From a virus (lineage: Duplodnaviria; Caudoviricetes): a DNA stretch of 25,803 nt. The position numbers and the translations under genes are program-made. This document shows positions 8,824 through 25,803 of the stretch, in pieces. Every line of letters starts with the position of its first letter. Positions within the stretch are counted from its first letter, which is position 1. A model generated the notes under the pieces. It was not told the origin of the DNA. It ran no database searches and saw only the letters and a list, made by a program, of their open reading frames with translations. The DNA is taken from positions 1 to 25,803 of the IMG/VR virus record IMGVR_UViG_3300034092_001533. One strand, given 5' to 3'.

Positions 8824-8826
8824 TTA

Positions 8827-10134: not shown

Positions 10135-10160
10135 TGTTTATTACTCCTAGGTATTTAAGA

Positions 10161-10962: not shown

Positions 10963-11005
10963 TTATATACCTCCGAGATAATTCAATTTTATCATGAAAG
11001 TAGTT

Positions 11006-12940: not shown

Positions 12941-12999
12941 TTTATAAAGCCTCTTTCTTATCCCATTTAGGATTTTTTAATTTTTGATTTGGATTACTA

Positions 13000-13028
13000 A
13001 GTCTAGCACAAACAATTTTTGATGCCAA
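13000..13028 (-). promoter_or_regulatory. Putative nrdJ promoter
   Basis: TTGGCA-17 nt-TAGACT with TG extension, 60 nt upstream of the ATG. Confidence 0.55.
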
Positions 13029-13030
13029 GT

Positions 13031-14005: not shown

Positions 14006-14063
14006 AAAATCCTTCGCTTCAGAATATATTAAGTCTACCACATGGATATTTTTTTTAAAATAG

Positions 14064-14092
14064 TTGACTTGGTCCAATTTAGCAGATAAACT
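14064..14092 (+). promoter_or_regulatory. sigmaA-type promoter, leaderless start
   Basis: TTGACT-17 nt-TAAACT, ATG 6 nt downstream. Confidence 0.65.
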
Positions 14093-14098
14093 AATATT

Positions 14099-14719: not shown

Positions 14720-14724
14720 ATTGT

Positions 14725-14753
14725 TTGACATCAATCTTACAAAATGATACAGT
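14725..14753 (+). promoter_or_regulatory. sigmaA-type promoter, leaderless start
   Basis: TTGACA-17 nt-TACAGT with TG extension, ATG 6 nt downstream. Confidence 0.7.
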
Positions 14754-14759
14754 TATTGT

Positions 14760-14972
14760 ATGGACATAGATAATACTGGAACTATAGACATTAGAGTCGT
14801 TAGGTCATGGCTAGATAACAGAGATGGTTATAGGCATGGCGCAGAGTGTACTACTAAATTGCTCTCTGGATTTGACGATGATGGTGTTTATTTAATATGC
14901 CTAGAGTGTAATGAAAAAACATACGTTGGATTACACACATACGAGATTATGAAAAGAGAATTAGATGTCTGA
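14760..14972 (+). CDS. Small hypothetical protein, possible Zn-binding (H..EC...CLEC)
   Basis: ORF with a dedicated promoter. Confidence 0.65.
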   Translation: MDIDNTGTIDIRVVRSWLDNRDGYRHGAECTTKLLSGFDDDGVYLICLECNEKTYVGLHTYEIMKRELDV

Positions 14973-15150
14973 AGAAAACGACAATATTCTTCTAGGTATT
15001 TATATACAGCTATCTAGAGTTTATGATATGCTTATGTTAATAGCAGATGGTGTAGGAAAAGGCGAAGAAGCAATAGAGATAAGAAATCTTCATAGCGAAG
15101 GTAAAATACTTACACCACCGCCATCATTAGTGGAGGACGAGAATGAATAA
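14965..15150 (+). CDS. Hypothetical protein
   Basis: Overlap-coupled ORF. Confidence 0.65.
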   Translation: MSEENDNILLGIYIQLSRVYDMLMLIADGVGKGEEAIEIRNLHSEGKILTPPPSLVEDENE

Positions 15151-15322
15151 ATATTTCGTAAATATCAGCCTTGAGGTTGATATAAATAAATACGATAATA
15201 TACAAGCCATAGTTGACTCTTTTGACTTAATAGGATCTGCAGAAAATACAGAAATCCTTGAAGTTACATATGAAAAAGTTGAACAAGACTGGCAATCAGA
15301 TTCATCAGACGAAGACTACTAA
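15143..15322 (+). CDS. Small acidic hypothetical protein (59 aa, MNKYFVNISLEVD...)
   Basis: Translated by hand; SD GGAGG; overlaps the previous stop. Confidence 0.65.
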   Translation: MNKYFVNISLEVDINKYDNIQAIVDSFDLIGSAENTEILEVTYEKVEQDWQSDSSDEDY

Positions 15323-15335
15323 CTAGCATTTAATT

Positions 15336-15406
15336 GCGAGTGTTACATAATGGTAGTGTCTCTGCCTTCCAAGCAGATAGTGCCAGTTCGATTCTGGTCA
15401 CTCGCT
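15336..15406 (+). tRNA. trnG: tRNA-Gly(TCC)
   Basis: Acceptor GCGAGTG/CACTCGC, D arm ACAT/GTGT, anticodon arm TCTGC-CTTCCAA-GCAGA, T arm GCCAG-TTCGATT-CTGGT; CCA not encoded. Confidence 0.95.
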
Positions 15407-15410
15407 CAAT

Positions 15411-15449
15411 AAAAAACCCCTAGGATAATGCCTAGGGGTTATTTTTTTT
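15411..15449. terminator. Bidirectional intrinsic terminator
   Basis: AACCCCTAGG-ATAATG-CCTAGGGGTT flanked by A and T tracts, between convergent tRNA-Gly and endolysin. Confidence 0.9.
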
Positions 15450-15457
15450 ATAATGTT

Positions 15458-16276
15458 TTACTTTTTAGCTTTTAATGCTTTCCAAGTATTTTCATCAACA
15501 ATGCCAGTCTCAGCAATCTTATTTGCTTTCTGGAATGCTTTTACTGATGTTAATGTTAGACTACCAAAATCACCGTCAGCCTTTAGTTTAAGGAATGATT
15601 GTAGCTTTTTGACACGATCACCCTTATCTCCAAGCTTGATGGGTTTAAATGGCTCTGTAGCCTCTTTTTTAACTACTGGTTTATCTGCTACAGAAGGTTT
15701 TGGTGCTGATGCTGATGGCGAATCAGTTGATCCAACTTTAGATAGAAGAGGTAAATTTTCTTCTCCTACATAAACTGGTCTTCCCCATCCAACTACAGCG
15801 TTGAGAAGTTTCTTTTTGTTGTTCTTAACATATGCTCTAGTTTTTTCTACGCACATGCCACCATTACGTTGGTCACCCTTTGCTGTTCCTGAAGTATTTC
15901 CTTCAACAACCTGTATGGTTCCATCTCCATTATTCTTAACACAAATTCCAACATGAGATATTCTGTTTACTCCATCTTCTGGAAAATCAAAATAAATCCA
16001 GTCTCCTGGAGTTGGGTCATCATTTCTTGCGTCTGCCCATCTATTGTTTTTCTTAAACCAATCAGATGCTGCAACGGTAGATGCTGACTTTGGATATTTC
16101 TTAGGATCTAGACCAGCAGTAAAGGCACACCAAGAAACGAAAGACTGGCACCATGGTGCAAAATTTACTCCGCTCCATTTTCCATATTTAGTTTCGTTAT
16201 CTTTTGGTCCTTCTATGGTACCTATTTCTTTTTTAGCAACTTCAATAATTGCTTCTAGAGATCCTTTTGCTGACAC
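15458..16276 (-). CDS. Endolysin: CHAP amidase plus C-terminal peptidoglycan-binding domain
   Basis: PWCQSFVSW (catalytic Cys), SHVGI, VEGNT; P/K-rich linker; GDRVKKLQ..L..DGDFG..T..VKAFQ...GIVD..TW (PG_binding_1). Confidence 0.93.
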   Translation of the reverse strand: MSAKGSLEAIIEVAKKEIGTIEGPKDNETKYGKWSGVNFAPWCQSFVSWCAFTAGLDPKKYPKSASTVAASDWFKKNNRWADARNDDPTPGDWIYFDFPEDGVNRISHVGICVKNNGDGTIQVVEGNTSGTAKGDQRNGGMCVEKTRAYVKNNKKKLLNAVVGWGRPVYVGEENLPLLSKVGSTDSPSASAPKPSVADKPVVKKEATEPFKPIKLGDKGDRVKKLQSFLKLKADGDFGSLTLTSVKAFQKANKIAETGIVDENTWKALKAKK

Positions 16277-16278
16277 TA

Positions 16279-16530
16279 TTACTTGGCCGCCTTTTTCTTT
16301 GAAGGCTTTTTAACAGACTTAAGAGCTTCCTCAACATCTGATGTTGCTGGCAATCTTCCAAAAGCTTTGTCATTTGGATTGATTGCACGTAATGCAACTG
16401 GGATTAGGGCAGCTAGTAAAGCCTTAGATAGATCTGCAGGATCTGTTACACCAGCCATGTATAGAGCTGTTGCTGCTCCAATTACGGAACGTCCGTATGA
16501 AGCTAATGCATTTTTAATTTGTTCTGACAT
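16279..16530 (-). CDS. Putative holin (r1t-like)
   Basis: 83 aa with two hydrophobic helices and a basic C-terminus, immediately upstream of the endolysin. Confidence 0.7.
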   Translation of the reverse strand: MSEQIKNALASYGRSVIGAATALYMAGVTDPADLSKALLAALIPVALRAINPNDKAFGRLPATSDVEEALKSVKKPSKKKAAK

Positions 16531-16596
16531 GTATGTTTTCCTTTTCTAATATCTTTAGATATTATTAATATTTATTAAATTATTAAGATAATAAAT

Positions 16597-16626
16597 GAGC
16601 CGTTTACATGGACAATGCTCAGGTCC
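16597..16626 (-). ncRNA. Candidate H-type pseudoknot element, copy 1
   Basis: GGAC-CTGAGCATT-GTCC-ATG-TAAAC-GGCTC; second copy at 25505-25535 has compensatory stem changes. Confidence 0.6.
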
Positions 16627-16692
16627 CTTATGCTTTTCACCATAGCCTAAAAGGCTTTAGGTCCGAATAGAAAAGCACAATTATATTATAGC

Positions 16693-17115
16693 CTATTTAA
16701 CTTTTATTTGTCTAGGCTTCTTTTCCTCTGGAAGGATACGCTCAATTTCAATTTTAAGCATCCCGTCCTTGAGTTCAGCAGCTTTTACTTCCATATATTC
16801 ACCAAGGGCCCACTCACGGGTAAATTTACGGGCAGCGATACCACGGTGGATAAACTTCGAATCGTTATCCTCCGCCTTTGTCTCTCCCTTTACGATGAGT
16901 TTTCCATCAGATACAGAAATATCAATATCTGTCTTGGTAAATCCAGCCAAAGCAAGCTCTACGACAAAGCTGTCGTCGTCTACTTTGATTAGATTATATG
17001 GTGGGTAATTTGTTGCTGTAGATACATTCTGGACATGATTCCAGGTATCTAGGGCTCTATCGAACCCAATGAAAAATGGGTCTTTAAAAAGATCCCATGT
17101 GTAAGTTGTAACCAT
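16693..17115 (-). CDS. hsp20: Small heat-shock protein (Hsp20/alpha-crystallin)
   Basis: FFIGFD, NYPPYNL, LAGF, HRGIAARKFTR and LKDGMLKI...PEEKKP motifs. Confidence 0.96.
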   Translation of the reverse strand: MVTTYTWDLFKDPFFIGFDRALDTWNHVQNVSTATNYPPYNLIKVDDDSFVVELALAGFTKTDIDISVSDGKLIVKGETKAEDNDSKFIHRGIAARKFTREWALGEYMEVKAAELKDGMLKIEIERILPEEKKPRQIKVK

Positions 17116-17178
17116 TTTTTGCTCCTTTTAAGCGAGTTAATTTAGCACCCCCCGAAGCGAGGTACTATTAATATTATA
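17116..17178 (-). promoter_or_regulatory. hsp20 promoter -10 box and ROSE-like 5'UTR
   Basis: TATAAT at 17178-17173; 5' hairpin TAGTACCTC/GGGGTGCTA; CTCGCT-TAAA-AGGAG hairpin sequesters the SD with a bulged G. Confidence 0.6.
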
Positions 17179-17267
17179 TCAAATATTTTTTAAATATGTC
17201 CATATAGACGGGAGTGAAGTGCGCCGAAAAATAGGGGTAAGAACACTTTTGCCTGTATAATTTAAGC

Positions 17268-17621
17268 ATGGAATTATACGACCAATTAACGCCTGTAGAA
17301 AAGGCCTATCATGACGCCCTACTTGGCGTAGTAGATAAATACGGACCATTTGATAAAGGTAGCGGCAGTGTTTGGGTCGGATATGAAGATGGCGAAGATA
17401 ATGAAAATTCAGCTATTGGAGTAAAGTGCGGAAACTGCTCATTTCATGTAGAGCTTTCTGGAACTACTGAGCTAGGATGTAAGATACTATCATTTAATGT
17501 AGAAGAGAATGGATTATGTAGATTAGCTGCTATTCCAGATGGATTAGTGAACGCCGAATCAGATGATATGGATGATATGGAAAATATGAATAAATTTTGG
17601 AATGGGGCATTTAGTAAATAA
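17268..17621 (+). CDS. Hypothetical protein with a HiPIP-like four-cysteine motif
   Basis: CGNC-x13-C-x12-C with V...GLC; leaderless start after TATAAT. Confidence 0.6.
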   Translation: MELYDQLTPVEKAYHDALLGVVDKYGPFDKGSGSVWVGYEDGEDNENSAIGVKCGNCSFHVELSGTTELGCKILSFNVEENGLCRLAAIPDGLVNAESDDMDDMENMNKFWNGAFSK

Positions 17622-18001
17622 TGTATACATACTACACTAAGGTAAGTAATATAGTAGATGGAGATACAGTAGATGTATTTGTTGATTTGGGATTTAAGGT
17701 ATGGCGTCAAGAACGTATGCGTTTAGTAGGTATTGATACCGCCGAGAAAAATACACCATATGGTAAGGCTACTAAAGAGTACCTTACTAAGCTATTAGTT
17801 GATAAGACTGTAAAGCTTGAGGTGTTTAAACCTGATAAATATGGTAGATACCTAGCAAAGATTTATATTAATTCCGAGAAATCGATCAACGACCAAATGG
17901 TAGAAAAAGGTATGGCTAAAGGCTATATGGGTGATTCTAAAGTTGGTCTATGGACTGAAGCTGAATTAGCCAGAACTACTGTAGATATAGTATTAGAGTA
18001 A
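17621..18001 (+). CDS. Thermonuclease (SNase-like)
   Basis: VDGDTV, RLVGIDTAE, DKYGRYLA and INDQMVEKGMA motifs. Confidence 0.93.
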   Translation: MYTYYTKVSNIVDGDTVDVFVDLGFKVWRQERMRLVGIDTAEKNTPYGKATKEYLTKLLVDKTVKLEVFKPDKYGRYLAKIYINSEKSINDQMVEKGMAKGYMGDSKVGLWTEAELARTTVDIVLE

Positions 18002-18005
18002 TATA

Positions 18006-18149
18006 CTAGGAGTTAGGATCATAACTCTCTAGGGCAAGAAGGATCTCTTCTGCCATCCCGTCGAAATTCAATTTTTGCTCTGAAGTGATATATTGACCTG
18101 ATTGAATCATCTTTTGAATTACAGATGATAGATATTGTTTTTTAGACAT
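18006..18149 (-). CDS. Small hypothetical protein (47 aa, MSKKQYLSS...)
   Basis: Translated by hand; strong SD GGGAGGT. Confidence 0.6.
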   Translation of the reverse strand: MSKKQYLSSVIQKMIQSGQYITSEQKLNFDGMAEEILLALESYDPNS

Positions 18150-18240
18150 AATTACCTCCCTAAATTTTAGGTTAGTAATCTATTATAAGATAAATAGACA
18201 TATTTTACAAATATAGCAATATGCCCTGTTTATTTATATA

Positions 18241-18486
18241 CTATGATATACGCTTAGTAGCTATATAAAGTGAAATACATACTGCAGACATTGCTAACAT
18301 TGGTATTAAGCTAGAAAGATTATTGATCAAGCTATAGTGACCGTTATAGAATCTCCAGGCATACTCATGAATTGAAGTTACAGTAAATAGTGTTGATATA
18401 TGAAGATGGAAAGATAATATTTTTGACAATACGCTAGCGCTACCGCCAGTTATAATTGTTGGTTTATCTAATATGTTTAATGACAT
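18241..18486 (-). CDS. Small hydrophobic/membrane protein
   Basis: SD GAGGAG; hydrophobic segments. Confidence 0.55.
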   Translation of the reverse strand: MSLNILDKPTIITGGSASVLSKILSFHLHISTLFTVTSIHEYAWRFYNGHYSLINNLSSLIPMLAMSAVCISLYIATKRIS

Positions 18487-18488
18487 TT

Positions 18489-18635
18489 TTACTCCTCAAA
18501 AGATACTTGATTTTCGATCATTTCATCAGTTACAGAATTACATGAACAATTACAGCATTTTTCTTTAACCATTGAAATTGGATCGTAGCCTTTTGGGGTT
18601 TGTCTGGCCCATGAATCTGGGTAATTATTTTCCAT
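18489..18635 (-). CDS. Small Cys-rich protein (48 aa, KCCNCSC)
   Basis: Translated by hand; fills the gap in a leftward operon. Confidence 0.5.
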   Translation of the reverse strand: MENNYPDSWARQTPKGYDPISMVKEKCCNCSCNSVTDEMIENQVSFEE

Positions 18636-18646
18636 ACCCAATTCTA

Positions 18647-19108
18647 TCATGGAAATTTTATATTGCCATTGTCGGCAAAGACAAGAGCTAGTGAGTCTCC
18701 TGGATTTAAAGATAGTTCATTAACTCCTACTTGAGCCCAAGCATATTTACCATTGAGGTCAAACGGGTTAGGGATAGGTTGTTTTCTTTTTTCTAGAATA
18801 GCCCAGTATGCTTTCTCTGAAGGCATCTCCTGACATGACTCATCTTTATAGGCAGGCAATCCATTTAGACGACATACTACAGCATCGCCATACTTAACTG
18901 TTCCCTCTACCTTAAAGCCATTATTCTTTAGGAAGTCTAGAGCTTTTACCTCATCACTCCAAGGAATACACTTATCAATTGTTGGCTCTCCCAAAACGCT
19001 ATAGTCTACATATAGACCTATGCAATCTTTACTTGGATCTGTTGCTACGGATATTACTCCACCAACACCTAATAAAATTAAAATTGATAATAATACTCTA
19101 GATAACAT
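18647..19108 (-). CDS. Secreted/membrane-anchored protein, possibly DUF4430/transcobalamin-C-like
   Basis: N-terminal signal/TM; VVCRLNGLP..C..MP..AYWA..AQVG..L.PGDSL pattern recalled from actinobacterial surface proteins; SD AGAGGAG. Confidence 0.55.
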   Translation of the reverse strand: MLSRVLLSILILLGVGGVISVATDPSKDCIGLYVDYSVLGEPTIDKCIPWSDEVKALDFLKNNGFKVEGTVKYGDAVVCRLNGLPAYKDESCQEMPSEKAYWAILEKRKQPIPNPFDLNGKYAWAQVGVNELSLNPGDSLALVFADNGNIKFP

Positions 19109-19181
19109 TTACTCTCCTCTTATAGTAATAATAATATACAGAAAGCTGTATATAATAATGCTACCATAATTATTAGGTTTT

Positions 19182-19343
19182 TCATAGGGTAGGCTTGGGA
19201 AAGTGAATTTCGAAACAGGACTGACAATATTTTATTAATATACCTTTAGAGTCTAACTTTGAGGTATAGGCATACTTATCACAATAATTACATATCGGCG
19301 GGGTGAAATCTAGTGAGTTCTCGAGATTCTCCAATATAGCCAT
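19182..19343 (-). CDS. Small Zn-finger-like protein (CNYC...CQSC)
   Basis: Likely start is ATG 19343 with SD GGGAG. Confidence 0.55.
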   Translation of the reverse strand: MAILENLENSLDFTPPICNYCDKYAYTSKLDSKGILIKYCQSCFEIHFPKPTL

Positions 19344-19543
19344 AATACTCCCTAATAAGATCAAAGGTTAATACGATACATACCTTGATATATCAATTAT
19401 ATCATATATGCCCTGTTTTTATATACCTATAATGTTAATAAAATTTTAAAATTTAGATACTATGTTACTGATGAGTAACTTATATTTGATATATATAATC
19501 ATATATTCTTTATCTTTTCTATCTTGTATTCTATACTTGATAC

Positions 19544-19680
19544 TTGGGAATTAGATTTTAGCAAAACCCCCCCTCCCCCCATGAATTAAATTCTCATGGT
19601 GAGAAGAGAGAAGCTTCACTAAACTCCCAAGAATTACTTGGTGTATTGAGTTCTAGTGTAAACCCCCAAAAACCTTTTCC
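19544..19680 (-). ncRNA. Candidate structured non-coding RNA (three-way junction, about 135 nt)
   Basis: Own promoter; two long hairpins inside a closing stem; many G-U pairs that work only on the minus strand; no ORF. Confidence 0.5.
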
Positions 19681-19683
19681 TCA

Positions 19684-19713
19684 AGTATAACAGCAAGGTA
19701 AATTTTATGTCAA
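19684..19713 (-). promoter_or_regulatory. Strong sigmaA-type promoter
   Basis: TTGACA(19713-19708)-18 nt-TATACT(19689-19684) with TG extension. Confidence 0.7.
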
Positions 19714-19780
19714 CCCTTCTCGATCTAAAATACCCAAAATGTTAATAAATTTTTATTTTGTATGATGCACTATTTTGAGC

Positions 19781-19796
19781 TCGAACACCTGTTCGA
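19781..19796. promoter_or_regulatory. Actinobacterial LexA (SOS) box
   Basis: TCGAAC-ACCT-GTTCGA, a perfect match to TCGAAC-N4-GTTCGA, intergenic. Confidence 0.75.
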
Positions 19797-19853
19797 ATAG
19801 CGAGCACAGAGGATAGGGATAAAAGGGACATACTACTCAGTAGGGTCCCCCCA

Positions 19854-19869
19854 TGTGATGGACATCACA
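19854..19869. promoter_or_regulatory. CRP/GlxR-type box
   Basis: TGTGA-TGGACA-TCACA. Confidence 0.7.
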
Positions 19870-19907
19870 AAAATAATTTACCGACACGCCCGAAAAACAC
19901 CCTAAAA

Positions 19908-19929
19908 TGTCAGTGGTCTATGTTAGGAT
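19908..19929 (+). promoter_or_regulatory. PafBC/RecA-NDp-type promoter 1
   Basis: TGTCAG-N10-TAGGAT. Confidence 0.7.
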
Positions 19930-19980
19930 ACTATGTATAAAGAAAGTTAAGGAAAGTCCTTAAACTAGAAAGGAGTTCAG

Positions 19981-20175
19981 ATGAACTCAATTATCCTAGA
20001 GCCTAGCCACCCAATGGCTAGCAGTAATACAGGCGATAGCCGTATTTTCCGTAATACAGTAGGTAACTACATAAGCCGTAAGGCTTATCTAGAAATGCTA
20101 TCTACTAGTAAGGGTTGCGTATCTCATAAATACCTTAGCCCTAATGAGTCTGCTTGGCTCATGAGTGTGAGATAA
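19981..20175 (+). CDS. Small early-region hypothetical protein
   Basis: SD AGAAAGGAG. Confidence 0.7.
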   Translation: MNSIILEPSHPMASSNTGDSRIFRNTVGNYISRKAYLEMLSTSKGCVSHKYLSPNESAWLMSVR

Positions 20176-20181
20176 CTCACA
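20166..20181. promoter_or_regulatory. CRP/GlxR-type box
   Basis: TGTGA-GATAAC-TCACA. Confidence 0.7.
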
Positions 20182-20209
20182 CCCCACGCCCTGCGTGTCG
20201 GCTTGATAA

Positions 20210-20231
20210 TGTCGGTCAAGTCTGATAGTCT
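20210..20231 (+). promoter_or_regulatory. PafBC/RecA-NDp-type promoter 2
   Basis: TGTCGG-N10-TAGTCT. Confidence 0.75.
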
Positions 20232-20274
20232 TACAGACAACAAAATGAAAGTTATCTTAGAAAGGATAAACTAA

Positions 20275-20403
20275 ATGAATATCGAACAATATAAAGAAAT
20301 GGTAGAGGCTCAGAGAGCCGAGAGCCTAAGAAACGCAATTCTTGCGCTAACAAAAGCGAACAACGCTTTAACTAATAATTTTAATGTAGAGGAGAATAAC
20401 TAA
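20275..20403 (+). CDS. Small hypothetical protein (42 aa)
   Basis: Translated by hand (MNIEQYKEMVEAQR...); SD AGAAAGGA. Confidence 0.7.
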   Translation: MNIEQYKEMVEAQRAESLRNAILALTKANNALTNNFNVEENN

Positions 20404-20565
20404 ATGAAAATAACTTACTCAATTTGGCAAGGCTCATTACAGAAGGGCACACTAACTTCTAATAGTATTAAAGATATAGTTAAGACTATAGACGAGTTAA
20501 ACTCAGTTAATCCACCCGTTAAGTTTGAATACCTAGTCCATAAGATTGAACAGGTAAATAACTAA
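20404..20565 (+). CDS. Small hypothetical protein (53 aa)
   Basis: MKITYSIWQG...; SD GAGGAG; TAATG coupling. Confidence 0.7.
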   Translation: MKITYSIWQGSLQKGTLTSNSIKDIVKTIDELNSVNPPVKFEYLVHKIEQVNN

Positions 20566-20753
20566 TGAAATCAGGATATCAAGTTAGATTAGAAACTTAC
20601 AGCGGTGAGGTAATGAATATCCACCTAATTAATAAAGAAGCCGTAAGGTTATTCATAGAAGAATTACCTAATCGATTAAGTAAGGGAACTAAAGTCAGCT
20701 TCGCTTGCGATGTCTTGGCTATTGGTGGCTCTCTAATGGGGAGAAAAGAATAA
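20565..20753 (+). CDS. Small hypothetical protein, paralogue of 22778..22969
   Basis: Shared T[YF]SGEV...IN..AV..F...LP..L...V.F.CD.L. Confidence 0.7.
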   Translation: MKSGYQVRLETYSGEVMNIHLINKEAVRLFIEELPNRLSKGTKVSFACDVLAIGGSLMGRKE

Positions 20754-20893
20754 TGAAATCTATAATCGCTTCCCTAGTAATCTGCTCGGCTATTGTGTCC
20801 CTCGATATTCTAACCGATCCAATTTACTCGAATTGTAAACAGACAATAGAAGGACGCACCTGCGACCTTGTTGGATATAAGTGGAAGCCTTGA
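20753..20893 (+). CDS. Small secreted/membrane protein (46 aa)
   Basis: Start at TAATG 20753 (MKSIIASLVIC...); hydrophobic N-terminus. Confidence 0.6.
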   Translation: MKSIIASLVICSAIVSLDILTDPIYSNCKQTIEGRTCDLVGYKWKP

Positions 20894-20919
20894 CAGTTGT
20901 CAGGGCTAACCGATAGAAT
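20890..20919 (+). promoter_or_regulatory. PafBC-type promoter 3, also with a canonical -35
   Basis: TGTCAG(20898)-N10-TAGAAT; TTGACA at 20890-20895. Confidence 0.7.
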
Positions 20920-20945
20920 TAAACTACGAAAGGAAAACTAAACAA

Positions 20946-21116
20946 ATGGAAATAACTATAGAAATAAATGAGTGGGGCTTAGGTCTTTACTCTCCTTGGG
21001 CTGGCTTCGATTTTACTTGGGGCTTTGCTATCACCACCGCAATTTTAATTTATGCGATTAGATATTTTAAAAAGTATCCAATCAAGACTCCTAGATTTTT
21101 AAGGAGAATTAAATAA
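20946..21116 (+). CDS. Small membrane protein (56 aa)
   Basis: MEITIEINEWG...; one hydrophobic helix and a basic tail; SD GAAAGGA. Confidence 0.7.
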   Translation: MEITIEINEWGLGLYSPWAGFDFTWGFAITTAILIYAIRYFKKYPIKTPRFLRRIK

Positions 21117-21307
21117 TGCCAATGACTAGAAAAGATTATCAGGAAACTGCTAAGATTTTAAAACAATATGCCGATGAAATTCATCCCGCTATTTTTAATG
21201 ATTTAGTAGATGAGTTTTCTGAAATGTTTGAAAAAGATAATCCGAGATTTGACCCAGAGCGATTTGAAAAAGCAACGGGCGCAAATAATTTAGAATTTAA
21301 TTTTTAA
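21116..21307 (+). CDS. Small phage protein (MTRKDY...DNPRFD..RF..A type)
   Basis: Recurrent phage early-protein motif; SD AAGGAG. Confidence 0.75.
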   Translation: MPMTRKDYQETAKILKQYADEIHPAIFNDLVDEFSEMFEKDNPRFDPERFEKATGANNLEFNF

Positions 21308-21335
21308 TAAATTAAATTAACTCGTTAGGGTGTGG

Positions 21336-21375
21336 CGACACGCCCGAACGAGGCGCCCCGCAGTCGGGCGTGTCG
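21336..21375. repeat. Perfect 12-bp inverted repeat CGACACGCCCGA/TCGGGCGTGTCG around GGCGCCCCGC
   Basis: Arms 21336-21347 and 21364-21375; half-copies at 19882, 22172, 23192 and 24261. Confidence 0.9.
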
Positions 21376-21382
21376 ATTAAGA

Positions 21383-21440
21383 CGTGATTTTAATCACCTG
21401 GAAAATTTGAGCGTGAAAAATCCATGTGAGGTTTATCACA
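21383..21440. promoter_or_regulatory. Two CRP/GlxR-type boxes
   Basis: CGTGA-TTTTAA-TCACC (21383-21398) and TGTGA-GGTTTA-TCACA (21425-21440). Confidence 0.7.
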
Positions 21441-21480
21441 ATCCCAAATGTCCGTTTTGGTATGGTTACTGGTCAGTAAA

Positions 21481-21502
21481 TGTCAGTGGTAGGTGTTATA
21501 CT
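21481..21502 (+). promoter_or_regulatory. PafBC-type promoter 4
   Basis: TGTCAG-N10-TATACT. Confidence 0.75.
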
Positions 21503-21552
21503 TCTAGTATAAAGAAAGTTGAGAAAGGTTCTCAAACTAGAAAGGAATTCAA

Positions 21553-21732
21553 ATGAATTCAACAATAATCGAAGTGTGCAAGACACACGTTCCTAATAAA
21601 TCTGCTATCTCCGAAGTAGGAGATGACCAGTTTACATTCTGCGAAGTTTGTGAACAAAACATTGAGCGTTGGTATAACGATACTGACCCTGAGCGTCTAC
21701 CTATGTGGACTTCATGGAAAGTAGGTAAGTAA
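21553..21732 (+). CDS. Small Zn-binding-like protein (59 aa; CKTH...CEVC)
   Basis: Translated by hand; SD AGAAAGGA. Confidence 0.7.
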   Translation: MNSTIIEVCKTHVPNKSAISEVGDDQFTFCEVCEQNIERWYNDTDPERLPMWTSWKVGK

Positions 21733-21733
21733 T

Positions 21734-21868
21734 ATGAATACACTTATCTGCGCTTTCTGCGAAATGGTTTACACCAATGATGTAAAGTTTTGCGGTTTCT
21801 GTAATGAATATAAAGGTCTAATGACCATATCCGATTTTGATAAATACTATGGAAAGGTTTCTAACTAA
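21734..21868 (+). CDS. Small Zn-ribbon protein (44 aa; CAFC-x10-CGFC)
   Basis: Translated by hand; coupled to neighbours. Confidence 0.65.
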   Translation: MNTLICAFCEMVYTNDVKFCGFCNEYKGLMTISDFDKYYGKVSN

Positions 21869-22029
21869 TGAATGACTATGAATTAAAAAATAATCTAATA
21901 AATCAAATTAAAGATTTAGCGGATAATAAATATACTAAAGAGTTTTCTAACTCTGCTCTATGGGGTTGTGCAACAGCATTGCTAACCACTGAACAATTAA
22001 AAATTATAAAATCGGTAATGGAGAAATAA
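21868..22029 (+). CDS. Small hypothetical protein (53 aa)
   Basis: TAATG coupling; SD GAAAGG. Confidence 0.65.
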   Translation: MNDYELKNNLINQIKDLADNKYTKEFSNSALWGCATALLTTEQLKIIKSVMEK

Positions 22030-22121
22030 TGAAAATAGAATTTGAAAAAGCAATTCAATTAGATCATTTAACTAAAGATGAATTGGAATTAGTAGAAAAT
22101 ATTTTAAAAGATTTTAAATAA
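22029..22121 (+). CDS. Very small hypothetical protein (30 aa)
   Basis: TAATG coupling; SD GGAG. Confidence 0.55.
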   Translation: MKIEFEKAIQLDHLTKDELELVENILKDFK

Positions 22122-22154
22122 ATAAAAAGCGTGTTAGCTTGACAAACGCAGAAA

Positions 22155-22233
22155 TGCGGGGCACCCCGCAGTCGGGCGTGTCGATTAAGTACGATGTGAT
22201 TAAGTTCACAGAATTTTTGTGGTGTAAATCACA
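22155..22233. promoter_or_regulatory. Cassette spacer: GC-rich repeat plus two CRP-type boxes
   Basis: GGGCACCCCGCAGTCGGGCGTGTCG; TGTGA-TTAAGT-TCACA (22195-22210); TGTGG-TGTAAA-TCACA (22218-22233). Confidence 0.7.
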
Positions 22234-22281
22234 CGGCTGAGCGTCTCATTATTTGGAATTACTGGCGGGTAAGTAGCAAAA

Positions 22282-22303
22282 TGTCTGCCCGTTCTGATAG
22301 ACT
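22282..22303 (+). promoter_or_regulatory. PafBC-type promoter 5
   Basis: TGTCTG-N10-TAGACT. Confidence 0.7.
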
Positions 22304-22339
22304 TACAGAGTAAGAAAATAAAGAAAGGAAGTAGTCACA

Positions 22340-22540
22340 ATGGCTAACTTATACACAATACAAGACCTTTTAATAGGTAAAAAATACGATAGCAATTCTC
22401 TAAGTGGAGTAATTGTATCTGCTGAAAAATCTAACCAACCAATTTGGTATGGTGAAAATACTGATGCTTATTTAGTAGAAATTAACTGCGGAACTTTGAA
22501 AAACCAATTCCGCACAATAGCAGTAAAGGTTGGTGAATAA
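22340..22540 (+). CDS. Small hypothetical protein
   Basis: SD AGAAAGGA. Confidence 0.75.
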   Translation: MANLYTIQDLLIGKKYDSNSLSGVIVSAEKSNQPIWYGENTDAYLVEINCGTLKNQFRTIAVKVGE

Positions 22541-22542
22541 TA

Positions 22543-22665
22543 ATGGGTTATGTTGAAATCTTTCGCCTTGATGAGCAAGGTGCTGGCTGGGTAGATTTAT
22601 CTGAGGCTACCCCGCAGGAATTATTAGACTTAGAAATTGGATTATTTCAGGAAGGTGCTATCTAA
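22543..22665 (+). CDS. Small acidic protein (40 aa, MGYVEIFRLDE...)
   Basis: Translated by hand; coupled. Confidence 0.65.
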   Translation: MGYVEIFRLDEQGAGWVDLSEATPQELLDLEIGLFQEGAI

Positions 22666-22781
22666 TGATAAACTCCGTAATGAGATTTGATTGCAACGAA
22701 TGTTCAGGCTCAGGCTTGATTTTTTGGGGCGATAATGATAACTATGATGTTGAAACTTGCGAATGTGAGGTGCTAGTTTGA
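22665..22781 (+). CDS. Small Zn-finger protein (38 aa; CNECSGSG...YDVETCEC)
   Basis: Translated by hand; paralogous to 23475..23660. Confidence 0.7.
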   Translation: MINSVMRFDCNECSGSGLIFWGDNDNYDVETCECEVLV

Positions 22782-22969
22782 TACCAGCAACAATAACAAC
22801 CTTTTCAGGAGAAGTAAAAAAACTAGAGTTTATAAATCCTAATGCAGTTGATTTTTTTACAAAGAAATTGCCTGCAGTATTGCCCGAAAATGTTTCGGTA
22901 TATTTTGAATGTGACTTATTAGATTTGCGTGGAACAATTAGAAGCGCAATTAAATCGGATGGAGAATAA
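22778..22969 (+). CDS. Small hypothetical protein, paralogue of 20565..20753
   Basis: TTG start overlapping the previous stop; SD GAGGTG. Confidence 0.7.
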   Translation: MIPATITTFSGEVKKLEFINPNAVDFFTKKLPAVLPENVSVYFECDLLDLRGTIRSAIKSDGE

Positions 22970-22970
22970 A

Positions 22971-23171
22971 ATGAAAACAATTAAACACTCTTTAGATTTT
23001 GTAACTGAGTTAGATGAAAATGACCCAACTGCTAAAAGATTATTAGCGATACCTGAAAATGAAAGAGAAATGTTGTTAAAAGATATGTTAATTAATATGT
23101 TTGATTTGGACAGTTTAATTGATGCAGTAAATGCTGGCAACTCTTGGGCTCATCTAAAACTTTTAAAATAA
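22971..23171 (+). CDS. Small hypothetical protein
   Basis: Likely start ATG 22971 (MKTIKHSLDF), SD GGAG. Confidence 0.65.
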   Translation: MKTIKHSLDFVTELDENDPTAKRLLAIPENEREMLLKDMLINMFDLDSLIDAVNAGNSWAHLKLLK

Positions 23172-23181
23172 AAAGCTTGGA

Positions 23182-23299
23182 TCGGGTGTGGCGACACGCC
23201 CGACCGAGGGGCCCCGCCCGAAATGTCCGATTTACGTAGATTAAGTAGATTGCCTGGAAAGTTGTGAAATAGATCACAAAATTAAATTACGGCGTGTCG
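23182..23299. promoter_or_regulatory. Cassette spacer: GC-rich hairpin repeat, CRP-type box and GGCGTGTCG
   Basis: TCGGGTGTG-GCGA-CACGCCCGA; TGTGA-AATAGA-TCACA (23263-23278); GGCGTGTCG (23291-23299). Confidence 0.7.
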
Positions 23300-23306
23300 T
23301 AGAAAA

Positions 23307-23328
23307 TGTCACCCCAACCTGATAGGCT
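23307..23328 (+). promoter_or_regulatory. PafBC-type promoter 6
   Basis: TGTCAC-N10-TAGGCT. Confidence 0.65.
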
Positions 23329-23352
23329 TAGATTATCTAAGAAAGGAAAACT

Positions 23353-23475
23353 ATGAAAGACTACTACGACGAATACTATGATGATTACTATTCTAAAGAA
23401 CTGCCACCTAGCGGTGATAGTTGTTATTGTCGCACTATGGTGTTATGCTCTAATTGTATGAAGGGATACAAATAA
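23353..23475 (+). CDS. Small D/Y-rich, Cys-rich protein (40 aa)
   Basis: MKDYYDEYYDDYY...CYC...CSNC; SD AGAAAGGA. Confidence 0.7.
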   Translation: MKDYYDEYYDDYYSKELPPSGDSCYCRTMVLCSNCMKGYK

Positions 23476-23660
23476 TGGGAAAGTTTAAGGAAAGTATTAC
23501 TAATATATTGACCTGCGGTTGGTGTTATGGTCAAGGCTGGCAATATGTCGGTAATGATGTAGACTATGATGTATGGGCTTGTGAGTGTAATACTTACAAT
23601 ATACCTGCTGATGAAATACTGGAGTACCACCAATTATTCAAAACTAAGGAGAACGCATAA
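23475..23660 (+). CDS. Small Zn-finger protein (CGWCYGQG...YDVWACEC)
   Basis: Start at TAATG 23475. Confidence 0.7.
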   Translation: MGKFKESITNILTCGWCYGQGWQYVGNDVDYDVWACECNTYNIPADEILEYHQLFKTKENA

Positions 23661-23869
23661 TGGAATATAACTACTCAATTACCACTTCCTATGACGGGGA
23701 GTTGGTTCACACCCTGCGTGTTAGCGATATGCTAGAGGCAGTAGACGCTTGGAATAAATGTGTAGATTTTGGCGACGCTAAAGAATACGCAACCTATAAC
23801 TTGTCCGACCCAACGGGTAAGATGTATACAAAGAACTTCTATAGAAATGGAGTAGTAAGTGGGAAATAA
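23660..23869 (+). CDS. Small hypothetical protein
   Basis: SD AAGGAG; TAATG coupling. Confidence 0.75.
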   Translation: MEYNYSITTSYDGELVHTLRVSDMLEAVDAWNKCVDFGDAKEYATYNLSDPTGKMYTKNFYRNGVVSGK

Positions 23870-24170
23870 TCTATCTCAGGAATTAGCCGAAGGTCTATTA
23901 GACTTAGACTTAGAAACTCAGATAACAATTCAATTAAGGAATAATCATTATCCGCCCGTTCCTTATTCAATGGTTCAACCTTGTATTGACGCTATTGACG
24001 CTTACAATGATGGTGAGCATGATAAGTTAATTCAATTACCAACCGACGGGTTTGATGCTAATGGTGAGCCGTTCCAAATTACTTGGCGTGGTAAAACTTC
24101 AGCACCTGCTCATGCCTTAGTTGAAGCACACCACTTAGAAAATTGGATTATAGAAAGAGAGTTGTGTTAA
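23859..24170 (+). CDS. Hypothetical phage protein (NHYPPVP motif)
   Basis: GTG start; SD GGAG. Confidence 0.75.
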   Translation: MGNNLSQELAEGLLDLDLETQITIQLRNNHYPPVPYSMVQPCIDAIDAYNDGEHDKLIQLPTDGFDANGEPFQITWRGKTSAPAHALVEAHHLENWIIERELC

Positions 24171-24186
24171 TTTATAATTAAATAAA

Positions 24187-24260
24187 GGTTCGTTAGCTCA
24201 GTTGGTTAGAGCGCTACCCTGTCACGGTAGAGGTCACGGGTTCAAGTCCCGTACGAATCG
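24187..24260 (+). tRNA. trnD: tRNA-Asp(GTC)
   Basis: Acceptor GGTTCGT/ACGAATC, D arm GCTC/GAGC, anticodon arm CTACC-CTGTCAC-GGTAG, T arm ACGGG-TTCAAGT-CCCGT, discriminator G; CCA not encoded. Confidence 0.96.
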
Positions 24261-24336
24261 CAACACGCCCGAACGGGGCGCCCCGCATTTTCTGGCATTT
24301 ACGTACATTAAGCAGAGCCCCACAAAATTTGTGGAA

Positions 24337-24358
24337 TGTCAGTCAAAGCTGCTAGAAT
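24337..24358 (+). promoter_or_regulatory. PafBC-type promoter 7 (leaderless)
   Basis: TGTCAG-N10-TAGAAT, ATG 6 nt downstream. Confidence 0.75.
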
Positions 24359-24364
24359 TAAATC

Positions 24365-25084
24365 ATGAAGCTAAAAAGATCAAATGACAGGAAGGTGGCC
24401 AACCTTGTCACAAAAAATGGAAAGCAAGCCGCTATGGCAAATACTTTTGGATTACCTGCTGGTAAAGAATTCTCATGTCCTGGCGCTACTAGTATATGCG
24501 AAAGTGTCTGCTACGCAGGAAAGCTTGAAAAACTCTTCAAAGGAGTAAAAACTAATCTGCTGCATAACTGGGAGCTCCTTAAGGACGCAGATCTTCAGAC
24601 AATGTACTCTCTAATTTCTGACATGATCTCAGAATTTAAAACAGAATGCGTAAAGAAAAATGCGCCTATGTTATTCCGTATACACTGGGACGGAGATTTT
24701 TTTAACGAAGACTACACACATGCATGGAAGCTGGTTATTGAAGAACAGCCCGATATTAAATTTTGGGTATATACTCGTGTTAAGTCCGCTGCACTAATTC
24801 TTAAAGACATCCCTAACTTATCACTATATTATTCTACGGATGATGAGAATCTACCAATTGCTACAGAATTAAAACAGGTTAACGGTGTTAGACTTGCATA
24901 CCTAGGAAAAACTTTTGCTCTTACAGAAACTAAGATGAAAGAAATAACTGGCAAAGTTGGTGCAAAGTGCCCTGAAAACAATAAGTCTATTCCGCTAATT
25001 AGCAATGCAGGATCTGCCTGCGTCTCTTGTGGATTGTGTGTATACGGTAAGGCGGATATTCGATTTAGCGCTACCAAAAAATAG
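24365..25084 (+). CDS. GP88-like protein (Fe-S/radical-SAM-like; mycobacteriophage gp88 family)
   Basis: FGLPAG..SCPGAT..C...CYA, FRIHWDGDF, WVYTR and C-terminal CPE...CVSCGLC. Confidence 0.8.
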   Translation: MKLKRSNDRKVANLVTKNGKQAAMANTFGLPAGKEFSCPGATSICESVCYAGKLEKLFKGVKTNLLHNWELLKDADLQTMYSLISDMISEFKTECVKKNAPMLFRIHWDGDFFNEDYTHAWKLVIEEQPDIKFWVYTRVKSAALILKDIPNLSLYYSTDDENLPIATELKQVNGVRLAYLGKTFALTETKMKEITGKVGAKCPENNKSIPLISNAGSACVSCGLCVYGKADIRFSATKK

Positions 25085-25119
25085 TTAGGGCCCATTAATG
25101 ATTTGGTTTGTTGTTGTTG

Positions 25120-25165
25120 CTGCAGCGGGGATTGTTGTGGTCCCCGTTGCAGGGGTTTTTATTTT
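25120..25165 (+). terminator. Intrinsic terminator
   Basis: CTGCAGCGGGGAT/GTCCCCGTTGCAG 13-bp stem followed by GGGTTTTTATTTT. Confidence 0.7.
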
Positions 25166-25234
25166 ATTTAGATCAGCTCGTAATATATAGCGCTGCGAGG
25201 CGCCCCGCAAATCCATTTTGTCAAATTAAGAACG

Positions 25235-25250
25235 TGTGATTTTTCCCACA
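25235..25250. promoter_or_regulatory. CRP/GlxR-type box (one mismatch)
   Basis: TGTGA-TTTTTC-CCACA. Confidence 0.6.
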
Positions 25251-25297
25251 AAAATAATCAGTAAAATGTCCGATTTGCCCTATTCATAAATTGTAAA

Positions 25298-25319
25298 TGT
25301 CGGTCAGTTCTGATAGAGT
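25298..25319 (+). promoter_or_regulatory. PafBC-type promoter 8
   Basis: TGTCGG-N10-TAGAGT. Confidence 0.75.
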
Positions 25320-25345
25320 TGTATTACTAAACGAAAGGAAGCACA

Positions 25346-25495
25346 ATGGCAAATACACCAAAAATCGGTGAAACAATTACCACTACCAAGTCTGGTATTA
25401 CAGGCAAGGTTGAGGAAGTTGTAAAGAACGCATCTGGCTCGGTGCGTGTCCGTCTAACAGTAGATGGAAAGCCACGCTGGACTACTATCAAGTAG
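25346..25495 (+). CDS. Small basic beta-rich (SH3/KOW-like) protein (49 aa)
   Basis: MANTPKIGETITTTKSGITGKVEEV...; SD GAAAGGA. Confidence 0.7.
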   Translation: MANTPKIGETITTTKSGITGKVEEVVKNASGSVRVRLTVDGKPRWTTIK

Positions 25496-25504
25496 CAAGC
25501 AACG

Positions 25505-25535
25505 CCACCTGAGCAAGTGGAGGGATAAACTGCTC
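25505..25535 (+). ncRNA. Candidate H-type pseudoknot element, copy 2
   Basis: CCAC-CTGAGCAA-GTGG-AGGGA-TAAAC-TGCTC. Confidence 0.6.
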
Positions 25536-25549
25536 AACAAAAACCCTAG

Positions 25550-25571
25550 TGTCTGACCCCTATGTTAGACT
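25550..25571 (+). promoter_or_regulatory. PafBC-type promoter 9
   Basis: TGTCTG-N10-TAGACT. Confidence 0.65.
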
Positions 25572-25608
25572 TAAATAACAACAACAAAAGAAAAGGAAAC
25601 CCTACACA

Positions 25609-25803
25609 ATGGCAAGAAGCGGAAAAGCGATACAGGTAAAAATCGCAACTACTAAGGTTATCAAAGCCTTAGAAATAAGATTAGCCAAACTAGAGGCTGA
25701 TTACACAAAGCAAGATGAAAACGAAGCAAAGTATCAGAAGGCTATGGAAAAATGGCGTAAAGAAATTGGCAAGTGGGCTATTGCTAATTTTGCTAAAGCA
25801 GAA
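25609..25803 (+). CDS. Hypothetical coiled-coil protein, truncated by the window edge
   Basis: MARSGKAIQVKIATTKVIKALE...; SD AAAGGA; no stop in the window. Confidence 0.75.
   Translation, partial: MARSGKAIQVKIATTKVIKALEIRLAKLEADYTKQDENEAKYQKAMEKWRKEIGKWAIANFAKAE

What the first reader, a model, noticed from the sequence alone, without database searches (positions are those of the whole stretch)
19908..25571. Nine promoters with the PafBC (RecA-NDp) DNA-damage architecture TGTC(R)G-N10-TAnnnT
Seen: copies start at 19908, 20210, 20898, 21481, 22282, 23307, 24337, 25298 and 25550. All are intergenic, on the plus strand, directly upstream of a cassette, with invariant spacing TGTC-N9-(T)GnTAnnnT; only one has an obvious canonical -35. 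Known: mycobacterial PafBC, a WYL-domain activator triggered by single-stranded nucleic acid, redirects sigmaA-RNAP to a -26 element with consensus TGTCGG-N10-TA-N3-T. Inference: incoming or replicating phage DNA could switch on PafBC, so the host damage alarm would drive phage early transcription. The left part of the window instead uses ordinary TTGACA-17/18-TAnnnT promoters.
Basis: partly seen in the sequence, partly recalled or inferred. Interest (0 to 1): 0.85.

Follow-up and report, generated by a model that had tools for sequence, protein, structure and literature searches.

The report
Lake phage promoters copy PafBC boxes
An uncultured lake phage, likely of small freshwater actinobacteria, carries in front of its small, probably early genes a promoter-like signal of the same build as the one before those bacteria's own recA gene, so it likely borrows the host's single-stranded-DNA alarm protein PafBC to turn these genes up; none of this has been tested at the bench.

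Summary
Confirmed. All nine sites exist: TGTC-N12-TAnnnT, + strand, intergenic. Eleven match against 0.09 expected, two of them inside ORFs. The window is a fragment of a ~110-kb freshwater actinophage family; across 80 related loci the 12-nt spacer occurs 1123 times against 59-164 for other spacers. ATGs 7-8 nt behind the -10 place TGTC near -28, the PafBC position. The same signal precedes recA in 19 of 19 candidate host genomes, and the family logo matches theirs at positions not used for selection. PafC is in 116 of 121 Nanopelagicaceae genomes. Five complete relatives encode no WYL protein or sigma factor. New here: phased CRP-type boxes upstream, and one relative with ordinary TTGAC promoters in the same block. 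Against a pure switch: the phage -10 is near-consensus and often extended, so basal activity is likely. Host, timing, ssDNA trigger and PafBC binding are untested. Cultured soil relatives lack the array. I found no report in print (10 searches); one pafBC-and-phage paper could not be read. This scan has noted the same thing in at least 222 other genomes.

The parts
19908..19929 (+). -26/-10 promoter signal 1 (TGTCAG..TAGGAT), before ORF 19981-20175
20210..20231 (+). signal 2 (TGTCGG..TAGTCT), before the ORF run 20275-20893
20890..20919 (+). signal 3, dual: canonical TTGACA at 20890 plus TGTCAG at 20898, -10 TAGAAT; before ORFs 20946-21307
21481..21502 (+). signal 4 (TGTCAG..TATACT), before ORFs 21553-22121
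22282..22303 (+). signal 5 (TGTCTG..TAGACT), before ORFs 22340-23171
23307..23328 (+). signal 6 (TGTCAC..TAGGCT), before ORFs 23353-24170
23428..23449 (+). extra, weaker match inside ORF 23353-23475; possible internal promoter
   Evidence: inferred
23802..23823 (+). extra, weaker match inside ORF 23660-23869; possible internal promoter
   Evidence: inferred
24337..24358 (+). signal 7 (TGTCAG..TAGAAT); the gp88 ATG follows 7 nt later with no ribosome-binding site, so a leaderless start is predicted
25298..25319 (+). signal 8 (TGTCGG..TAGAGT), before ORF 25346-25495
25550..25571 (+). signal 9 (TGTCTG..TAGACT), before ORF 25609-end
19854..19869 (.). perfect CRP-type box, 54 nt before signal 1
20166..20181 (.). 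perfect CRP-type box, 44 nt before signal 2
21425..21440 (.). perfect CRP-type box, 56 nt before signal 4 (a weaker one at 21383)
22195..22233 (.). two CRP-type boxes (22195 perfect, 22218 one change), 87 and 64 nt before signal 5
23263..23278 (.). perfect CRP-type box, 44 nt before signal 6
25235..25250 (.). CRP-type box with one change, 63 nt before signal 8
19883..23298 (.). six GACACGCC / GGCGTGTC words (19883, 21337, 21367, 22175, 23193, 23291) that hold the WhiA core GACAC; reader unknown
   Evidence: WhiA motif from PMC10243135
24365..25084 (+). gp88-family gene (PF17338 on its G001 orthologue), family marker; homologues lie in the terminal repeat of Streptomyces cluster BE phages
24187..24261 (+). 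tRNA-Asp(GTC) inside the block
25120..25160 (+). terminator-like hairpin after gp88
19684..19713 (-). ordinary TTGACA-18-TATACT promoter signal facing away from the block (contrast case)

Best explanation
The nine repeats share one fixed TGTC-N12-TAnnnT layout in front of a block of small phage genes, and they are likely sigma-A promoters whose missing -35 is replaced by the -26 box that the host's ssDNA-activated PafBC would read, so that PafBC probably raises their output during infection. Shown: the repeat, its fixed spacing, its conservation through a ~110-kb phage family, the same signal before recA in candidate hosts, pafBC in those hosts, and no WYL or sigma gene detected in complete relatives. 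Inferred: (1) transcription starts 7-8 nt behind the -10, from ATG positions; (2) the host is a Nanopelagicales-type actinobacterium; (3) PafB's HTH reads the GTC triplet and PafC bridges sigma region 4, as in Mycobacterium; (4) ssDNA made by DNA entry, end processing, host-DNA breakdown or phage recombination activates PafBC; (5) because the -10 is near-consensus and often extended, there is some PafBC-free activity, and PafBC acts as a feed-forward amplifier; (6) host CRP at the phased upstream boxes tunes about half of the promoters.
For: 11 matches against 0.09 by chance, one strand. 80 related loci: spacer 12 gives 1123 on + against 59-164 for spacers 8-17 (143 on -); 79 of 80 loci have 5 or more. 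IMG/VR scan: at least 123 stretches at the right spacing, 1 with one more base. Of 77 ORF-opening ATGs within 15 nt of the -10, 69 lie at 7-8 nt; 71 of 76 gp88 genes have the signal within 60 nt, 39 of them at 7-8 nt. This places the first T near -28, as in PMC8635444. 19 of 19 candidate-host recA genes have the signal within 450 nt, against 15 of 1287 ORFs of one host genome. At positions +4 to +7, not used for selection, host/phage read A.58+G.42/A.80+G.19, G.95/.98, T.68/.72, G.89/.54. The phage matrix run blind on genome G640 ranks recA, rmuC, a LysM YneA-like gene, a PRK07883-like DEDD exonuclease and a PD-(D/E)XK nuclease among its top 13 of 21 hits. HTH_PafC is in 116 of 121 family genomes. 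The RxxxR (R46/R50-like) recognition helix is seen in the aligned PafB N-termini, which were picked on the neighbouring FERDK word. WYL 0 of 5 and Sigma70_r2 0 of 5 complete relatives; PafB/PafC HTH profiles find nothing below E 0.38 in 25,531 phage peptides. Canonical -35 and TGTC box rarely coincide (7 of 1044 sites), and relative L014 uses TTGAC promoters through much of its block.
Against: No binding, transcript or timing data. The host is inferred: whiB in 5 of 5 relatives, kinship to Streptomyces and Rhodococcus phages, and related phage contigs in 2 of 401 Nanopelagicales assemblies. Such contigs also sit in bins labelled Beijerinckiaceae and Acidimicrobiaceae, so binning is weak evidence. 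Phage GC is 0.37-0.38 against 0.47 for G640. The phage -10 matches TATAAT at 5-6 of 6 in 364 of 413 sites, host recA at 3 of 6 in 15 of 19; 271 of 413 have an extended-10 TG (host 9 of 19), so PafBC may be dispensable. 8 of the 13 top host hits are unrelated, unknown or only plausibly DNA-related, and 15 of 21 genes from the relaxed host scan are unrelated. The 80 loci and 19 hosts are kin, not independent samples. Ten cultured phages lack the array (0-6 matches), so the family's relatives do without it.
Confidence: 0.68

Rival explanations
1. They are strong extended -10 promoters that sigma-A RNA polymerase uses alone; the TGTC box gives only a small PafBC boost or is contacted by another general factor.
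For: Near-consensus -10 in 364 of 413 sites and TG extension in 271 of 413; first-expressed genes should not wait for a signal (inference); L014 does with ordinary -35 promoters.
Against: TGTCRG is held at one exact spacing over hundreds of sites, with G at +5 in 98%. In G001, 8 of 9 strong extended -10 hexamers in the block carry the box, and 0 of 48 elsewhere do. Such constraint implies a specific reader that matters.
Confidence: 0.12
2. A phage-encoded factor (the small sigma-4-like HTH, the phage WhiB, or an unrecognised small protein) reads the box in the manner of T4 MotA, and the match to PafBC sites is inherited or convergent.
For: The HTH is conserved in 5 of 5 relatives, below the Pfam cut-off; whiB 5 of 5; most small ORFs have no family.
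Against: The same HTH is found in 93 Streptomyces and 6 Rhodococcus phage records, a group whose sampled members lack the array. It lies in the opposite-strand replication operon. No PafB-like HTH was found. The logo equals the host recA logo at unselected positions.
Confidence: 0.1
3. The 15-19 sites per genome mainly act as a decoy that soaks up active PafBC and blunts the host's damage response (division inhibitor, island nucleases).
For: 15-19 copies per complete genome; host targets include a YneA-like gene and island genes; a cited paper links pafBC to phage resistance (title only).
Against: Every copy is oriented, heads a gene and carries a full -10 with a ribosome-binding site or an ATG at the predicted start. 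PafBC joins only polymerase-bound promoter DNA (PMC11804915), so a decoy would itself be a promoter.
Confidence: 0.06
4. TGTC is the complement of the WhiA core GACAC, and WhiA with the phage WhiB activates these promoters.
For: whiA in 5 of 5 host genomes, phage whiB, GACACGCC words near the promoters.
Against: GACAC needs a G before TGTC, found in 4% of sites. WhiA binds upstream of an intact -35 with variable spacing (PMC10243135), not at a fixed -28. WhiA remains a candidate only for the separate GACACGCC words.
Confidence: 0.04

Closest known systems
PafBC-dependent (RecA-NDp) promoters of Mycobacterium and other actinobacteria, 'sigma adaptation' (PMC8635444, PMC11804915, PMC8223512)
   Same: tGTCrg, 10 nt, TAnnnT; no -35; first T near -28; GTC triplet invariant; the same signal precedes recA in candidate hosts.
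   Different: Here the sites are on a phage, 15-19 packed in one ~11-13 kb block before small unknown genes, not repair genes. The -10 is much stronger, and CRP-type boxes lie upstream. Dependence on PafBC and ssDNA is untested.
T4 middle promoters, MotA/AsiA 'sigma appropriation' (named in PMC8635444)
   Same: A -35-less phage promoter class with a canonical -10 and a factor-specific upstream box.
   Different: T4 encodes its own factors; here no such gene was detected and the box equals a host regulon's box.
Temperate phages wired to host LexA/SOS, such as coliphage 186, CTXphi and GIL01/Bam35 (recalled, no call)
   Same: Phage genes coupled to a host DNA-damage sensor.
   Different: Those use release from a repressor to leave lysogeny. 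This would use an activator, in a phage with no integrase seen in the scanned ORFs of G001.
Terminal-repeat small-gene blocks of Stanwilliamsviridae (Streptomyces clusters BE/BK) and Rhodococcus phages Peregrin, Trina, NiceHouse, Dorin
   Same: Shared gp88, DnaE (51-57%), major capsid (58-61%) and small HTH; a block of short, separately promoted genes.
   Different: These carry 0-6 TGTCRG-N10-TAnnnT matches at background level, against 15-19 on one strand in the lake phages.
Class I CRP/GlxR-activated promoters (outline in PMC10243135; positions -61.5/-71.5 recalled)
   Same: Perfect TGTGA-N6-TCACA boxes at whole-turn steps upstream; hosts have one CRP with an SRETVNK helix.
   Different: Predicted centres -54.5, -64.5, -74.5, -84.5 are about 3 bp off the recalled E. 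coli optima; a side group lies half a turn away; the combination with a -26 box was not met in the passages read.

Membership tests
PafBC-dependent promoter | GTC triplet within tGTCgg upstream element | tested here: met
   9 of 9 TGTC, 8 of 9 G at +5; G 0.98 in 413 family sites
PafBC-dependent promoter | exactly 10 nt between the hexamer and TAnnnT | tested here: met
   1123 against 59-164 for other spacers; at least 123 against 1 in IMG/VR
PafBC-dependent promoter | element at -28 to -23 from the start site | tested here: inconclusive
   indirect only: 69 of 77 close ATGs at 7-8 nt behind the -10; no RNA data
PafBC-dependent promoter | no canonical -35 | tested here: met
   8 of 9 in the window; 7 of 1044 family sites have a TTGAC -35; 113 of 687 have a one-mismatch or perfect TTGACA at spacers 16-19
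PafBC-dependent promoter | host encodes PafB and PafC with the recognition arginines | tested here: inconclusive
   met for candidate hosts; the true host is not shown
PafBC-dependent promoter | silent without PafBC, activated by PafBC plus ssDNA, induced by DNA damage | not testable with these tools
   needs reporters or in vitro transcription; the strong -10 makes full silence doubtful
Phage-factor (MotA-type) promoter | phage encodes the dedicated activator or sigma factor | tested here: inconclusive
   no WYL, Sigma70_r2 or PafB/C-like HTH; a small HTH and WhiB are present
WhiA/WhiB promoter | GACAC on either strand upstream of an intact -35 | tested here: not met
   G before TGTC in 4% of sites, no -35; separate GACACGCC words exist
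Class I CRP-activated promoter | consensus box at helical intervals upstream | tested here: met
   237 of 301 box-to-site distances end in 3, 4 or 5, peaks at 34/44/54/64; sites are partly orthologous
Class I CRP-activated promoter | CRP binding and activation through the alpha-CTD | not testable with these tools
   host CRP present in 5 of 5; no perfect or near-perfect box in host G640

The most novel reading that the evidence does not exclude
A widespread lytic phage family of the dominant lake bacteria makes the host's ssDNA alarm its early-gene switch. Phage-made ssDNA activates host PafBC, which with host CRP (damage and nutrient state read together) fires some fifteen promoters, so sunlight-damaged or already attacked cells commit fastest, and loss of pafBC would give resistance.
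Probability: 0.3. Interest if true: 0.9.

Novelty: new variant of a known kind. Interest (0 to 1): 0.7.

Why it matters
WYL-domain ssDNA sensors are known as host tools for repair and anti-phage control. A phage that drives a whole gene block from the activator's promoter class would turn that alarm into its own amplifier, a lytic, activator-based counterpart to prophages that listen to SOS. It predicts a host-dependency gene (pafBC) and a link between UV damage and infection in Nanopelagicales, abundant freshwater bacteria. It is testable today without the phage, because an in vitro PafBC assay exists (PMC11804915). The hundreds of natural sites also give a ready map of what PafBC tolerates and how it may combine with CRP.

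Tried and rejected
Host by tRNA: an exact tRNA-Asp stretch found 0 genomes. Host by AhpC: top hits were phage-like contigs in mixed bins and betaproteobacteria, uninformative. Phage against G640 by blastn: only short matches (32-174 nt), the window's best at its tRNA-Asp. First host sample (401 Actinomycetota, WYL in 344) drew mostly deep lineages. A recA-upstream scan of 59 of 60 loci from it gave TGTC-type sites in 2 of 15 WYL-bearing and 1 of 44 WYL-less genomes, with uncertain starts and only 300 nt, so it is inconclusive (its tree was the quick one and is not used). My first 200-nt look upstream of candidate-host recA missed most sites and showed a CGTCG-type site with 12-13 nt spacing instead; the 450-nt look found them. 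Terminal repeat: G002 has an exact 3269-nt repeat inside the block, G001 and G003 only 55 and 127 nt, so 'injected first' is not shown. One search had one N too many; it is kept as the spacing control. TGTC as a reversed -35 was rejected: the reverse reads CTGACA/CCGACA with no opposite-strand gene. PHROGs named 1 of 22 small block ORFs, an unknown family. No fold or complex job was run. Literature searches listed no paper whose title or abstract opening describes PafBC-type promoters on a phage. Genomes flagged unpublished enter only the tallies and rows; no main claim rests on them.


Full report
Observation. In 19701-25803 the pattern TGTC-N10-G-N-TAnnnT occurs 11 times on + and never on -, against a shuffle mean of 0.09 (maximum 2 in 1000), and not at all in 1-19700. 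Two of the 11 (23428, 23802) lie inside small ORFs. Six of the nine fit TGTCRG. Only 20898 also has TTGACA at 18 nt; four ordinary TTGAC promoters lie to the left. A contig 99.98% identical over 11.4 kb (L002) shows five more matches beyond the window's end.

What the DNA is. The held genome is the window alone, a virus record. Its left part has tail-like, ribonucleotide reductase, glycosyltransferase, endolysin and Hsp20 genes. The right part is a + strand block of short ORFs, tRNA-Asp and a gp88 gene. gp88 finds 598 confirmed IMG/VR stretches, of which the best 80 were kept, at 79-100% identity. Five complete relatives are 108-115 kb; three were fetched and have GC 0.37-0.38. DnaE and capsid are closest to Streptomyces BE/BK phages, then Rhodococcus phages. 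whiB is in 5 of 5, a marker used for freshwater actinophages (PMC10914622 passages; PMC10202952 first part). The only runs offered were lake-water metagenomes.

Family-wide signal. Over the 80 loci, spacer 12 gives 1123 matches on + (143 on -), spacers 8-17 otherwise 59-164; 79 of 80 loci have at least five. Three complete genomes have 15-19 TGTCRG-N10-TAnnnT on one strand, nearly all within one 11-13 kb block, against 0-3 for the reversed control. These loci are kin, so counts are not independent. Position evidence: among 693 distinct sites, 77 have an ORF-opening ATG within 15 nt, 69 of them 7-8 nt behind the -10; for gp88, 71 of 76 have the signal and 39 of those put the ATG at 7-8 nt. Leaderless starts there would put the first T at -28 or -29 (inference).

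Comparison with PafBC. PMC8635444 (passages; second part of Results) gives tGTCgg(N10)tA(N3)T at -28 to -23, read at GTC by PafB R46/R50 while PafC takes sigma region 4. PMC11804915 (passages) shows activation by ssDNA, not ssRNA, and only on polymerase-bound promoter. PMC8223512 (passages) says PafBC levels do not change under stress. To test the likely hosts I drew 301 Actinomycetes genomes and took the 20 small ones among 39 with a rhodopsin. Four of nine proteins looked up carried the source name Ca. Nanopelagicaceae. All 20 have a WYL match; 18 have two short WYL genes side by side, and two fragmented assemblies show only a weak long one. HTH_PafC is in 116 of 121 family genomes. recA was found in 19 of 20, and all 19 have TGTC-N12-TAnnnT within 450 nt upstream (17 distinct sequences), against 15 of 1287 ORFs in G640. 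Host and phage logos agree at the unselected positions +4 to +7. A matrix made from 377 phage sites and run on G640 gave 21 hits over 11 bits. The top 13 include recA, rmuC, a LysM gene like yneA (below the NCBIfam cut-off), a PRK07883-like DEDD exonuclease and a PD-(D/E)XK nuclease. A DUF6504 gene, a DNA methylase and a HATPase_c_3 gene are plausible; five are unrelated or unknown. A looser scan added an AdnAB-like helicase-nuclease but was mostly noise, 15 of 21 genes.

A phage reader? WYL 0 of 5 and Sigma70_r2 0 of 5. Pfam on 149 of 181 called G001 ORFs and PHROGs on 52 showed RecA, DnaE, SSB, RuvC-like, WhiB and an HTH_17 protein, and no sigma factor or integrase. Profiles of host PafB and PafC N-termini found nothing better than E 0.38 in 25,531 six-frame peptides. 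Against this, a ~50-aa sigma-4-like HTH scores below cut-off in 5 of 5. It also occurs in 93 Streptomyces and 6 Rhodococcus phage records, and ten cultured phages sampled (eight large relatives, one Mycobacterium phage, one small Streptomyces phage) have 0-6 matches at background level. It is therefore a weak candidate but not excluded. The phage's own recA and SSB in G001 have no such signal near their starts: the regulon is the small-gene block, not repair.

First, CRP-type boxes: five perfect ones in the block (shuffle mean 0.01). In the family 230 of 248 distinct perfect boxes are followed by a TGTC-type site, 283 of 687 sites have a box within 130 nt, and 237 of 301 distances fall at 33-35, 43-45, 53-55, 63-65 and so on, with a side peak at 49. 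Hosts have one CRP with an intact recognition helix, but G640 has no perfect or near-perfect box, and the phase is about 3 bp off the E. coli optima that I recall. Second, GACACGCC words at preferred distances of 17-18, 25, 59 and 100-101 nt; whiA is in 5 of 5 hosts, reader unknown. Third, a natural swap: L014 has five TGTC-type sites, three of them dual, among a row of TTGAC promoters, and its CRP boxes keep the same phase to the -10 (7 TTGAC-only cases in the family at 49-50, 60, 69-70). The -26 box thus seems to stand in for the -35, and the family is not bound to it.

Mechanism. Most likely host sigma-A polymerase uses these promoters, and ssDNA-loaded PafBC supplies the upstream contact (0.68). 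The main caution is the -10: 364 of 413 phage sites match TATAAT at 5-6 of 6, and 271 have an extended TG, while 15 of 19 host recA sites match at 3 of 6. I therefore expect basal activity with PafBC as amplifier; a strict switch is the bolder reading (0.3). 'Early' rests on the layout and on gp88 homologues lying in BE-phage terminal repeats (two places per record); end repeats of the three relatives do not settle it. The source of ssDNA is inferred. The host link is weak: related contigs in 2 of 401 Nanopelagicales assemblies, but also in bins of other taxa.

Novelty. Ten searches of the held library (listings and abstract openings) showed no report of PafBC-type promoters on a phage. PMC12848934 (passages) cites Rafique et al. 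[quoted passage not shown] That paper is not held; I saw only its title and cannot say whether it anticipates this. PMC10243135 was seen as passages. No supplements were read; site lists in the PafBC papers' supplements could bear on the logo comparison. The scan's own notes report the same reading in at least 222 genomes, one marked 'part of it fell' without detail; they are not independent support. Verdict: real, a known promoter class in a new setting, well supported by comparison, untested at the bench; interest 0.7.

Noticed in passing
window 21330-21480, 22140-22280, 23185-23306, 24260-24336, 25190-25297: A loose scaffold recurs upstream of five promoters: GACACGCC, then a GC-rich G..CCCCGC word, then TTTACG and/or ATTAAG, then a CRP-type box. 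Its reader is unknown.
   Followed up: partly
G640, G609, G509, G594, G655; loci L277-L294: These candidate host genomes keep pafBC, crp and whiA but show no Pup ligase (0 of 5); pafB follows a tRNA-methyltransferase-like gene directly and pafC leads to tatC. PafBC seems to outlast the pupylation genes.
   Followed up: partly
L014:6243-15216: A family member whose block is driven mostly by canonical TTGAC promoters, with three dual sites and CRP boxes in the same phase.
   Followed up: partly
G640:C1:411697-438797: Seven strong PafBC-type sites cluster in 27 kb of the host genome, before a DNA methylase, a HATPase_c_3 protein, a trypsin-like protease and others; possibly a damage-inducible island.
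   Followed up: no
L310-L324, about 90-110 nt before recA: A second conserved element, CGTCG or CGTAG then 11-13 nt then CCGTACCTT, lies between the PafBC-type site and recA in many candidate hosts.
   Followed up: no
G002:C1:1-3269 and 108743-112011: An exact 3269-nt terminal repeat falls inside the promoter block; real genome end or assembly overlap is unknown.
   Followed up: no
window 19110-19900: About 800 nt of A+T-rich DNA without clear genes between the divergent halves, with a C-run at 19568-19580; a candidate genome end or origin.
   Followed up: no
window 19935-19990 and 21507-21562: The leaders behind signals 1 and 4 are 86% identical over 56 nt, suggesting that promoter cassettes are duplicated or swapped.
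   Followed up: no
L001:8172-8193 (phage Spelly) and MF347638.1:8037-8058 (Peebs): Cluster BE phages have a single TGTC-N12-TAGACT site in the terminal repeat; chance or a lone PafBC-type promoter in a cultured phage, which could be tested.
   Followed up: no
G001 (L087, L088, L089, L092): The relative carries about a dozen 2OG-Fe(II)/JmjC oxygenases, an AhpC with an AhpD-like neighbour, APS kinase and a pyrimidine-dimer glycosylase.
   Followed up: no
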